Shown here: piece after piece, positions 35,602 through 48,060 of the stretch | How the letters are laid out: the number at the start of each line of letters is the position of its first letter | Numbering within the stretch: position 1 is the first letter of the stretch | Assembly (NCBI GenBank): GCA_018238155.1 | Contig: JABCTZ010000003.1 | Location: 164,289-228,288, forward strand | DNA from: Candidatus Heimdallarchaeota archaeon | Lineage (GTDB): Archaea; Asgardarchaeota; Heimdallarchaeia; JABLTI01 | Reading direction: 5' to 3' | DNA length: 64,000 bases | The notes under the pieces: model-generated | What the model was told of the DNA's origin: nothing | Seen by the model: the letters and a program-made list of their open reading frames with translations, nothing else | Database searches by the model: none | Translations under genes and position numbers: made by a program

Positions 35602-35678
35602 TGGAGCCGCTGACGGGATTTGAACCCGCGATCCTTTGATTACGAATCAAATGCTTTACCGAGCTAAGCCACAACGGC
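35602..35678 (-). tRNA. tRNA-Thr(CGU), intronless, CCA encoded
   Basis: Reverse complement GCCGTTG..GCTT..AAGC TTTGA-TT CGT AA-TCAAA GCGGG TTCAAAT CCCGT CAGCGGC T CCA folds as a cloverleaf. Confidence 0.96.
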
Positions 35679-47656: not shown

Positions 47657-47763
47657 TCCAAGACCTTCCGTTATTTTTTTAAGTAAGTTTTTTTTAGTTT
47701 CAGATATTCTAAAAATAACAGTTTTTAGATTAATGGAATCAATCGTTTGTATTCCGTAAAAAC

Positions 47764-47778
47764 GGCAAACTTTAAAAA
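47764..47778 (+). promoter_or_regulatory. Putative BRE/TATA promoter of the permuted 5S gene
   Basis: GGCAAAC-TTTAAAAA about 25-30 bp upstream of the processing stem. Confidence 0.5.
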
Positions 47779-47806
47779 CCAAAAGGCAAAACGATTGAAT
47801 CACGCA

Positions 47807-47955
47807 AAAACTCATCACCGGAAGTTAAGCCTTCATACGTAGTGATAATTACTGATCTGAGAGATCGTTCGGGAACATCATTAAGCTGCGTTGCGACGCG
47901 GTCAAAGCTGGAGGGCAACACCCGGACCCGTCCGATCCCGGAAATGGTGAGTTTT
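47807..47955 (+). other. Precursor processing stem with BHB/BHL-like motif around permuted 5S
   Basis: AAAACTCATCA (47807-47817) pairs with TGGTGAGTTTT (47945-47955); CCGG/CCGG 4-bp helix; AAG and AAA unpaired 3' of each CCGG. Confidence 0.85.
47824..47943 (+). rRNA. rrf: 5S rRNA, circularly permuted (canonical 3' part 47824-47892 precedes canonical 5' part 47895-47943)
   Basis: GUUAAGCC...UACUG...GGGAAC...GCUGCGUU then GACGCGGUCAAAGC...GGGCAACACCCGGACCCGUCCGAUCCCGGAA; helices I, II, III and V pair; 120 nt. Confidence 0.92.
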
Positions 47956-48060
47956 GGCGACTAATTGTACCAGAAACGATTCTTTCTTATTATAATTACC
48001 TCAAAATCATTTGAATTATAGTTAATTTTTTTTAAATAAAAGAAATAATAAAAGATTAGC

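What the first reader, a model, noticed from the sequence alone, without database searches (positions are those of the whole stretch)
47807..47955. BHB-like motif formed by a duplicated CCGGAA places both cuts exactly at the 5S junction
Seen in sequence: CCGGAA occurs at both ends (47818-47823 and 47938-47943). CCGG is self-complementary, so the two copies form a 4-bp central helix. It stacks on the 11-bp outer stem AAAACUCAUCA/UGGUGAGUUUU with a clean 3-nt AAA bulge (47942-47944) on the 3' strand, and AAG (47822-47824) follows the helix on the 5' strand. The inner flanking helix is weak, so this is a relaxed bulge-helix-loop form. Established: the archaeal splicing endonuclease cuts after the second nucleotide of each bulge. 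Applying that rule gives AA^G and AA^A and releases 47824-47943, exactly 120 nt, whose ligation regenerates a single CCGGAAGUUAAG. Inference: the 5S is excised like a circularising intron by EndA and RtcB. A native conserved 5S motif was co-opted as the splice signal, which suggests an origin by partial tandem duplication or circle re-insertion.
Basis: partly seen in the sequence, partly recalled or inferred. Interest (0 to 1): 0.9.

Follow-up and report, generated by a model that had tools for sequence, protein, structure and literature searches.

The report
Back-to-front 5S rRNA gene, spliced circular
This Heimdall-group Asgard archaeon encodes its only detectable 5S ribosomal RNA with the two halves swapped between tRNA-intron-type cut signals, and public environmental RNA contains exactly the predicted cut-and-rejoined 120-nt form, which explains why 5S genes seem to be missing from these relatives of eukaryotes.

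Summary
47824-47943 is a circularly permuted 5S rRNA gene: 3' half, helix I capped by a UGCG tetraloop, then 5' half. It is the only 5S-like locus found in this genome. Leader and trailer form an 11-bp stem, a 4-bp helix and 3-nt bulges, which is a relaxed bulge-helix-bulge (BHL) motif. In relatives, 10 of 11 stem pairs covary. The leader 4-mer is a complement of the 3' strand, not a duplicate (CAGG/CCUG, CGUG/CACG, CCGC/GCGG); CCGG merely happens to be a palindrome. Metatranscriptome contigs from three studies carry the predicted 47943|47824 joint and no flank sequence. The genome encodes an (alpha-beta)2-type splicing endonuclease and RtcB. A model of the permuted gene matches 79 of 83 genomes of the class and most other Asgard families. 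Normal and permuted 5S are mutually exclusive by family. A pattern scan of 185,579 species genomes found true hits only in Asgard-type records. Still unproven: that EndA/RtcB do the cutting and joining, and that the closed ring is the ribosomal form. This scan has already noted the same phenomenon on other DNA (94 notes, at least 73 genomes). I found no published description.

The parts
47767..47778 (+). TATA/BRE-like box AAACTTTAAAAA, about 26-30 nt upstream of the base of the stem; candidate promoter of an independent 5S transcription unit
   Evidence: Seen in sequence. (G)AAACTTTAAA is conserved at the same distance in most f1 relatives; the g2 genome G011 has TAACTTTTTAAGG there (5' flanks printed). 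Promoter function was not tested.
47803..47817 (+). Leader strand of the outer (processing) stem: CGC (47803-47805), then an 11-nt strand (47807-47817)
   Evidence: The MFE fold pairs it with 47945-47959. 10 of 11 pairs covary across f1 and f3.
47818..47821 (+). Leader strand of the 4-bp central helix (CCGG); it mimics the 5' strand of native 5S helix III
   Evidence: 95% of cells paired in 21 loci. Compensatory variants occur in other lineages: CUGG/CCAG, CAGG/CCUG, CGUG/CACG, CCGC/GCGG.
47822..47824 (+). 5' 'bulge' AAG with no adjoining inner helix (the BHL side); predicted cut between 47823 and 47824
   Evidence: Sequence. The RNA joint is compatible with this position within a 6-nt ambiguity. 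The cut after the 2nd bulge nucleotide is pinned by lineages whose two bulges differ.
47824..47891 (+). 3' half of the 5S rRNA (Rfam model positions ~54-120): 3' strand of helix III (outer part), 3' strand of helix II, helices V and IV, 3' strand of helix I
   Evidence: Rfam partial hit with high posterior probabilities. RNAalifold recovers the helices with compensatory changes.
47892..47895 (+). UGCG (UNCG-type) tetraloop capping helix I where a normal 5S has its 5' and 3' ends
   Evidence: Helix I (47885-47891 with 47896-47902) is 100% paired, with 3 covarying pairs. 46 of 81 distinct cores across Asgard have a UNCG cap.
47896..47943 (+). 5' half of the 5S rRNA (model positions ~5-53): 5' strand of helix I, loop A, 5' strand of helix II, helix III and loop C up to ...CCCGGAA
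   Evidence: Rfam partial hit; consensus structure.
47938..47941 (+). 3' strand of the central helix (CCGG). This is also the native 3' strand of helix III, so the BHB fold and the native 5S fold compete for it
   Evidence: In G023 the helix III 5' strand, the 3' strand and the leader copy all changed together (CUGG, CCAG, CUGG).
47942..47944 (+). 3' bulge AAA; predicted cut between 47943 and 47944
   Evidence: AAA is invariant in the 21 f1/f3 loci. No RNA contig piece extends beyond 47943; beyond it one contig reads GTTAAGCCT (= 47824-47832).
47945..47959 (+). Trailer strand of the outer stem (11 nt at 47945-47955, plus GCG at 47957-47959)
47980..47988 (+). T-rich tract TTCTTTCTT; possible archaeal terminator
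   Evidence: Seen in sequence only; not tested and not checked for conservation.

Best explanation
47824-47943 is this organism's 5S rRNA gene in circularly permuted order. It is transcribed on its own with a short leader and trailer. The leader and trailer pair into an outer stem. A leader 4-mer that mimics the 5' strand of helix III pairs with the 3' strand of helix III to form the 4-bp helix of a relaxed bulge-helix-bulge (BHL) motif. The two-subunit (alpha-beta)2 splicing endonuclease cuts after the second nucleotide of each 3-nt bulge, at 47823|47824 and 47943|47944. RtcB then joins the new ends and restores loop C/helix III (...CCCGGAA-GUUAAG...). Because helix I is capped by a UNCG tetraloop, the product is a 120-nt covalently closed 5S, which most likely enters the ribosome as a ring. 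Shown: the permutation; selection on all five 5S helices; covariation of the processing stem; the ligated junction in RNA; presence of the enzymes; distribution across Asgard. Inferred: which enzymes act; the exact cut positions in this locus; that the ring is the mature ribosomal form.
For: No 5S reaches Rfam's cut-off in the window or the genome. Two abutting half-hits cover the model once, in swapped order. On 31 gene-order sequences RNAalifold recovers helices I-V, with 27 of 35 pairs compensatory. Outer stem: 10 of 11 pairs change on both sides; slid controls drop to 29-46% paired. Geometry chosen by pairing alone restores the canonical loop-C spacing in 60 of 76 loci, against 4.5% with shuffled flanks, and in two different registers (...GGAA|GUUAAG and ...GGA|AGUUAAG). 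Where the two bulges differ (leader AGA with 3' GAU or GAA), only a cut after nucleotide 2 yields the conserved GGAAGU. RNA: contigs in X2 and X3 'go back 120' at the predicted joint, and X3's contigs are 150 nt, which equals 120 + k-1. X1 contigs with 0 mismatches read across the same joint. No RNA contig reaches the flanks. X16 holds a relative's colinear flanks without the joint. Enzymes: a catalytic alpha subunit (Y/H/K kept), a structural beta subunit (catalytic His replaced) and RtcB. Only (alpha-beta)2 and epsilon2 enzymes cut relaxed motifs efficiently (PMC6379350, PMC5829648). Precedent: the permuted SRP RNA of Thermoproteus is circularised at a leader/trailer BHB by a heterotetrameric EndA (PMC4731332). 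The UNCG cap occurs in 46 of 81 distinct cores. The permuted model matches 79 of 83 class genomes. Normal and permuted 5S are mutually exclusive by family.
Against: No enzymology was done. The 6-nt repeat hides the exact cut sites in this locus. Contigs show that joint k-mers and intact-cap k-mers exist, not that single molecules are closed rings or that rings sit in ribosomes. The X2 contig threads two sequence variants, so it is a graph path and not one molecule. The 5' side lacks an inner helix, and some (alpha-beta)2 enzymes have narrow specificity (PMC5829648). The central helix competes with native helix III. In four f3 genomes the fourth central pair is A.C. In 16 of 76 loci the blind geometry search gave another answer or none.
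Confidence: 0.75

Rival explanations
1. The ring is only an intermediate. After ligation it is re-opened at or near the helix I cap to give a conventional linear 5S, as happens for permuted tRNAs of Cyanidioschyzon and as is classically assumed for circular pre-16S/23S rRNA.
For: Precedent for circular intermediates in archaeal rRNA and in permuted tRNA maturation (PMC12918454 background; PMC4267664 citing Soma 2007). Contig data cannot tell rings from a mixture of precursor and re-opened molecules.
Against: The cap is only 4 nt here and mostly 3-5 nt elsewhere, and it is a hyper-stable UNCG tetraloop in 46 of 81 cores, leaving no spacer for a processing signal. Helix I has 7 bp in 60 of 81 cores. 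RNA contigs run through the cap without a break.
Confidence: 0.12
2. The transcript is cut but not ligated. The functional 5S is a linear permuted molecule with its ends in loop C, and the 'joint' in RNA-seq comes from reverse-transcriptase template switching.
For: Brown-algal mitochondrial 5S is permuted in the final product without ligation (PMC4267664). Template switching can imitate back-splice joints that lie exactly at RNA ends.
Against: The joint is assembled into contigs in three independent studies, and those contigs are the only forms of this 5S found in these runs. EndA-type ends (2',3'-cyclic phosphate and 5'-OH) are RtcB substrates by established knowledge, and RtcB is encoded. 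The break would lie in the most conserved, protein-contacting part of the 5S.
Confidence: 0.06
3. Excision and joining are real but done by other enzymes: a different endonuclease acting on the stem, and a different RNA ligase.
For: No enzyme assay exists. The 5' site is not a canonical bulge. Archaea hold other RNA ligases that circularise RNAs (mentioned in PMC7758197).
Against: The 4-bp helix with 3-nt bulges is conserved while its sequence changes, and it is kept in two registers, which is the EndA signature. In Thermoproteus a like motif is cut by recombinant EndA (PMC4731332).
Confidence: 0.05
4. Chance similarity, a pseudogene, or an assembly artefact.
For: Rfam scores are sub-threshold (17.5 and 16.6 bits).
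Against: The same arrangement occurs in 79 of 83 class genomes, including closed chromosomes. There is compensatory evolution in every helix. The RNA is present in metatranscriptomes. It is the sole 5S candidate in the genome.
Confidence: 0.01

Closest known systems
Permuted, circularised SRP RNA of Thermoproteus tenax / T. uzoniensis (Plagens et al. 2015, eLife, PMC4731332; read)
   Same: An essential structured RNA gene with swapped halves. Leader and trailer fold into a BHB. The junction lies in a functionally important loop and is restored by ligation. The host has a heterotetrameric EndA, and RtcB was proposed as the ligase. The canonical gene had been 'missing' from the genomes.
   Different: A different RNA (5S rRNA, a ribosome component). 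Here the trait spans most of a phylum rather than a few species of one genus. Here the 3' strand of the splice helix is itself part of the mature RNA. No biochemical proof exists here.
Circularly permuted tRNA genes (Cyanidioschyzon merolae, Soma et al. 2007, as cited in PMC4267664 and PMC6379350; also reported in archaea)
   Same: 3' half before 5' half, BHB-type processing of the joined ends, and a circular RNA stage.
   Different: tRNA rings are re-opened at an intervening sequence to give linear tRNAs. Here the native ends are replaced by a 4-nt UNCG cap with no spacer.
Circular pre-16S/23S rRNA intermediates and circular 23S rRNA in archaeal ribosomes (PMC12918454; permuted 23S in Pyrococcus, PMC7758197)
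   Same: BHB motifs in processing stems, with EndA-type excision and circularisation of ribosomal RNA. A circular rRNA can be the mature form.
   Different: Those genes are colinear, not permuted. The same 2026 paper states that 5S rRNAs are not processed in this way. Here circularisation is obligatory to rebuild the molecule.
Permuted mitochondrial 5S rRNA of brown algae (Valach et al. 2014, PMC4267664)
   Same: A 5S whose helix I is closed into a hairpin and whose ends lie elsewhere. Standard covariance models miss it.
   Different: It is organellar. Its ends lie at the three-way junction. It is permuted in the final linear product, with no BHB and no ligation.

Membership tests
5S rRNA (Rfam RF00001) | Score at or above the curated gathering cut-off (38 bits) in gene order | tested here: not met
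   17.5 and 16.6 bits for two abutting half-matches. This is expected for a circular permutation. Together the two halves cover the model once.
5S rRNA (Rfam RF00001) | Helices I-V and the conserved loop A, C and E sequences, kept by compensatory change | tested here: met
   RNAalifold on 31 gene-order sequences gave 35 pairs, 27 with both-side changes. GUUAAG, GGGAA, CA(A/U)AG and the CCGA loop motifs are conserved.
5S rRNA (Rfam RF00001) | Free 5' and 3' ends at helix I | tested here: not met
   Helix I is closed by UGCG (47892-47895) in the gene, and RNA contigs run through it.
BHB/BHL substrate of the archaeal splicing endonuclease | Central 4-bp helix | tested here: met
   CCGG/CCGG here. 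95% of cells paired in 21 loci, with complementary rather than identical 4-mers in other lineages.
BHB/BHL substrate of the archaeal splicing endonuclease | Two 3-nt bulges on opposite strands, each flanked by helices (the strict hBHBh' form) | tested here: not met
   The 3' bulge AAA is clean and is flanked by the outer stem. The 5' AAG is not followed by an adjoining inner helix, so the motif is the relaxed BHL form.
BHB/BHL substrate of the archaeal splicing endonuclease | Host enzyme of a type that accepts relaxed motifs | tested here: inconclusive
   Catalytic alpha plus His-less beta subunit indicates the (alpha-beta)2 type, the type reported to have broad specificity (PMC6379350). At least one (alpha-beta)2 enzyme is narrow (PMC5829648). 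I did not examine the specificity loop.
BHB/BHL substrate of the archaeal splicing endonuclease | Cleavage by EndA at the second/third bulge nucleotide | not testable with these tools
   Indirect support only: the RNA joint lies within the 6-nt window, and lineages with unlike bulges need the cut after nucleotide 2 to give GGAAGU.
Permuted RNA genes matured by splicing-type circularisation | Ligated junction of the gene's two ends present in RNA and absent from DNA | tested here: met
   The joint is seen in RNA runs X1, X2 and X3 (three studies). X16 shows colinear flanks and no joint. X16's kind is not on record, so the DNA control is weak.
Permuted RNA genes matured by splicing-type circularisation | Covalently closed topology of the mature molecule | not testable with these tools
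   Contigs of 150 nt (120 + k-1) fit a cyclic k-mer path but do not prove single closed molecules.

The most novel reading that the evidence does not exclude
The ribosomes of most Asgard archaea, including the Heimdall/Hod group nearest to eukaryotes, carry a covalently circular 5S rRNA made by the tRNA-splicing machinery from a permuted gene. If the permutation is ancestral to that clade, the linear, colinear 5S of eukaryotes must either descend from a lineage that kept the normal gene or reflect a reversal, which would make the 5S gene order a discrete character bearing on where eukaryotes branch.
Probability: 0.5. Interest if true: 0.9.

Novelty: new variant of a known kind. Interest (0 to 1): 0.8.

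Why it matters
It solves a practical puzzle. Closed Heimdallarchaeum genomes were published with the remark that no 5S gene could be predicted (PMC8813620), and standard models fail on most Asgard genomes, which affects annotation and genome-quality calls that require a 5S. It adds the 5S rRNA to the RNAs that depend on the tRNA-splicing endonuclease and ligase, whereas a 2026 survey of archaeal rRNA circularisation still excludes 5S (PMC12918454). It predicts a ring-shaped 5S in a cellular ribosome. It also offers a clean present/absent character: permuted and normal genes were mutually exclusive across 27 sampled families of the phylum closest to eukaryotes.

Tried and rejected
- Single-sequence MFE folding of the excised RNA, whether re-opened at the cap or folded as a circle, did not reproduce the 5S fold. 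This was uninformative, and the comparative fold replaced it.
- My first regex screen of the f2/f6 loci printed nothing because the patterns were too strict. I redid it by coordinates.
- RNA contigs do not cover the leader or trailer, and no leader-trailer ligation product (...CACCGGAA|AUGGUG...) was seen. Contigs drop rare species, so this says nothing about the precursor.
- The 10 bacterial hits of the genome-wide pattern scan have no match to the permuted model and are chance matches, close to the ~18 I expected. The pattern only catches GYTG...CGGYCAWAG...ACAC variants, so absence outside Asgard is 'not found by this pattern', not proof.
- The blind geometry finder gave another register or none in 16 of 76 loci. 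These were mostly f2 genomes whose first outer-stem pair is mismatched, f4, and second copies with weak stems.
- Duplication as the explanation of the two CCGGAA copies is rejected as the conserved principle (see the interpretation field). It is not rejected as a historical origin.
- I did not use the structure-prediction or complex-prediction tools because no claim here rests on them.
- The G handles with a normal 5S (f11, f17, f20 and others) could not be named.

Full report
**Observation.**
- CCGGAA lies at 47818-47823 and 47938-47943.
- The 11-nt strands 47807-47817 and 47945-47955 pair, with one G-U.
- The two CCGG form a 4-bp helix.
- AAA (47942-47944) is a clean 3-nt bulge, and AAG (47822-47824) follows the helix on the other strand.
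- No inner helix abuts the central helix, so the motif is the relaxed (BHL) form.
- The minimum-energy fold of 47800-47965 contains this 11+4 bp stack with the 3-nt bulge, plus three more pairs at the base (47803-47805 with 47957-47959). The z-score is -2.5, and none of 200 shuffles folds as well.

**What lies between the cuts.** Rfam finds no 5S at its cut-off in the window or anywhere in the 4.08-Mb, 90.7%-complete genome. At permissive thresholds two abutting half-matches appear. 47822-47894 aligns to model positions ~54-120, and 47898-47943 aligns to positions ~5-53. The gene is therefore circularly permuted: 3' half (47824-47891), a UGCG tetraloop (47892-47895) closing helix I where a normal 5S has its ends, then the 5' half (47896-47943). 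On 31 gene-order sequences from relatives, RNAalifold recovers helices I-V in permuted topology. 27 of 35 pairs show compensatory changes. This is a 5S under purifying selection, not a relic. A covariance model of the permuted form (R1) finds a single copy in this genome.

**Is the flanking motif real?**
- On 21 loci from two families (alignment A1), 10 of 11 outer-stem pairs change on both sides and 91% of cells pair. The central helix is 95% paired. Sliding the partner strand by 1-3 columns drops pairing to 29-46%.
- The leader 4-mer is a complement of the 3' strand, not a copy: CUGG/CCAG in one Hod-type genome, CAGG or CGGG/CCUG in the Heimdallarchaeum family, CGUG/CACG in Odin-type and several other families, CCGC/GCGG and CCGU/GCGG in f6, CCGA/UCGG in f21. 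The 'duplicated CCGGAA' of this window exists because CCGG is palindromic.
- Functionally the leader mimics the 5' strand of native helix III and competes with it for the 3' strand.
- A search that picks the best geometry (outer stem, 3-nt bulge, 4-bp helix) from pairing alone gave a product with canonical loop-C spacing in 60 of 76 distinct loci, 43 of them with high scores. With shuffled flanks the figures were 68 of 1520 and 2 of 1520.
- Two registers occur, ...GGAA|GUUAAG (as here) and ...GGA|AGUUAAG. Both rebuild the same 13-mer.
- Any symmetric cut rule would conserve length. But where the two bulges differ (leader AGA with 3' GAU in Atabey-type genomes, or with GAA in f13), only a cut after the second nucleotide gives the conserved GGAAGU.
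- The loci are related, so these counts are not independent events.

**RNA.** Twenty public runs hold part of the stretch, 14 of them RNA on record. I laid three RNA runs from three studies, plus one run of unknown kind, on 47740-48020.

| Run | Kind | What it shows |
|---|---|---|
| X2 | RNA | One contig carries the joint '47937 to 47818, goes back 120' with 6 letters fitting either side, i.e. 47943\|47824 within the CCGGAA ambiguity |
| X3 | RNA | Two contigs carry the same joint; both are 150 nt = 120 + k-1, as expected for a cyclic 31-mer path |
| X1 | RNA | Two contigs without a single mismatch to this window end in loose letters that read on across the same joint (the 15 nt of 47923-47937 before 47818; the 9 nt of 47824-47832 after 47943) |
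| X16 | not on record | Holds a close relative's colinear leader and trailer at low depth, without the joint |

No RNA contig piece lies outside 47818-47943. Two limits apply. The contigs prove that joint k-mers and intact-cap k-mers exist, not that single molecules are closed. The X2 contig also threads two sequence variants, so it is a graph path rather than one molecule.

**Enzymes.** The genome has two EndA-family ORFs and one RtcB.
- The 197-aa protein is closest to the catalytic subunits of crenarchaeal heterotetramers (2cv8, 3p1z_B, 2zyz_B) and keeps Tyr, His and Lys.
- The 193-aa protein has Pro where M. jannaschii EndA has the catalytic His, and it shows a weak Sen15 match. It is therefore a structural subunit.
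- This is the (alpha-beta)2 type. According to PMC6379350 and PMC5829648, this type, with epsilon2, is the one that cuts relaxed BHB/BHL motifs efficiently, although one (alpha-beta)2 enzyme is narrow. I did not examine the specificity loop.

**Distribution.**
- R1 matches full-length in 79 of 83 genomes of the class, in all seven families.
- In an even sample of 151 genomes of the phylum, 85 have a strong permuted match and 48 have a normal 5S over Rfam's cut-off. The normal ones are f11 25/26, f17 17/19, f20 3/5, f15, f27 and f28. No genome has both. The single 'normal' hit in f6 is the 5' half of a permuted gene.
- Normal genes in f17 follow a tRNA.
- An exact-pattern scan of 185,579 species genomes gave 86 stretches. 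70 of the 80 listed loci match R1 at 78-134 bits, and all of these are Asgard-type records. They carry Heimdall-, Hod-, Kari-, Odin-, Hel-, Hermod- and Atabey-type labels, Asgardarchaeum, and generic Asgard or 'uncultured archaeon' labels. Both closed Heimdallarchaeum chromosomes are matched, at two sites each. The 10 bacterial hits match nothing.
- Contig lengths tie the handles to names: G016/G026 to the 3.08 and 3.33 Mb Heimdallarchaeum chromosomes, G093 to Atabeyarchaeia-1, G068 to a Kariarchaeota record, G031 to a Hodarchaeota record.
- The window's own genus includes records labelled Heimdallarchaeota.

**Does the ring stay closed?** Helix I is capped by UNCG tetraloops in 46 of 81 distinct cores (UUCG 23, UGCG 18, UACG 5). 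The stems are mostly 7 bp and the loops 3-5 nt. That looks like a permanent cap rather than a spacer with processing signals. This is an inference, not proof.

**Comparison with what is known.**
- The closest case is the permuted SRP RNA of Thermoproteus. It is circularised at a leader/trailer BHB that recombinant heterotetrameric EndA cleaves (PMC4731332).
- Permuted tRNA genes share the logic but are re-opened.
- Archaeal 16S/23S precursors circularise at BHB motifs, and 23S can stay circular. The same 2026 paper says that 5S does not do so (PMC12918454).
- Brown-algal mitochondrial 5S is permuted as a linear end product without ligation (PMC4267664).
- Wu et al. 2022 state that 5S genes 'could not be predicted' in the closed Heimdallarchaeum genomes (PMC8813620).
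- Seven full-text searches found no description of a permuted or circular 5S in archaea.
- This scan itself has 94 earlier notes on the same phenomenon in at least 73 genomes. I used them for the lead to Plagens 2015 and re-tested their claims here.

**Verdict.** It is a new variant of a known kind of system: splicing-type maturation of a permuted RNA gene, now applied to the 5S rRNA across most of a phylum. The identity of the enzymes and the ring as the ribosomal form remain to be shown.

Noticed in passing
L017:1491-1699 (Heimdallarchaeum, f2); also L090 and L160 (Atabey-type) and L101 (f14): In these lineages a roughly 30-nt hairpin sits in the leader between the outer stem and the 4-bp central helix. 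The splice motif is then a three-way junction and not a continuous stem. How an EndA would accommodate this is unclear.
   Followed up: partly
L192-L201 and L102 (f4, Kariarchaeota-type; same class as the window): All 11 f4 genomes have leader NNNN-A[AG]A-GUUAAG (UAA in one) and a 3' strand NNNN-AU[AU] followed by the stem, with complementary 4-mers. The predicted product reads ...GAU|AGUUAAG, one nucleotide longer than elsewhere, which would give a 3-nt instead of a 2-nt AA bulge in helix III.
   Followed up: partly
G016 and G026 (closed Heimdallarchaeum chromosomes; L129/L170 and L143/L154); G036 contigs C77, C90, C106, C132: Heimdallarchaeum carries two permuted 5S copies per chromosome. 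For one copy of each pair (L129, L154) my blind geometry search picked a spurious motif. G036 shows four identical copies, three of them at contig ends, which suggests a repeat that breaks assembly.
   Followed up: no
L032 (G015:C30:19075-19225, f3): The permuted-5S match spans 151 nt instead of about 122, and the 5' half seems interrupted after ...CCGAA. This may be an insertion or an intron-like element in loop C.
   Followed up: no
L167 (DATKZI010000026.1) and L135 (JBHLQZ010000003.1): Records labelled 'Bathyarchaeia' and 'Thorarchaeota' by their submitters carry Heimdall-type permuted 5S genes whose scores are identical to G010 and G060 of this class. They are probably mislabelled or mis-binned.
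   Followed up: partly
L104 (G183) and L105 (G142), family f17: Asgard families with a normal 5S have it directly downstream of a tRNA gene, a different genomic context from the stand-alone permuted genes.
   Followed up: no
window 47767-47778: An AAACTTTAAA(A/T) box is conserved about 26-30 nt upstream of the stem in most genomes of the window's family. It is a likely TATA/BRE element, which would make the primary transcript start right at the base of the processing stem.
   Followed up: partly
window 35602-35678 (- strand): tRNA-Thr(CGU), the only tRNA and the only Rfam match over cut-off in the 64-kb window.
   Followed up: no
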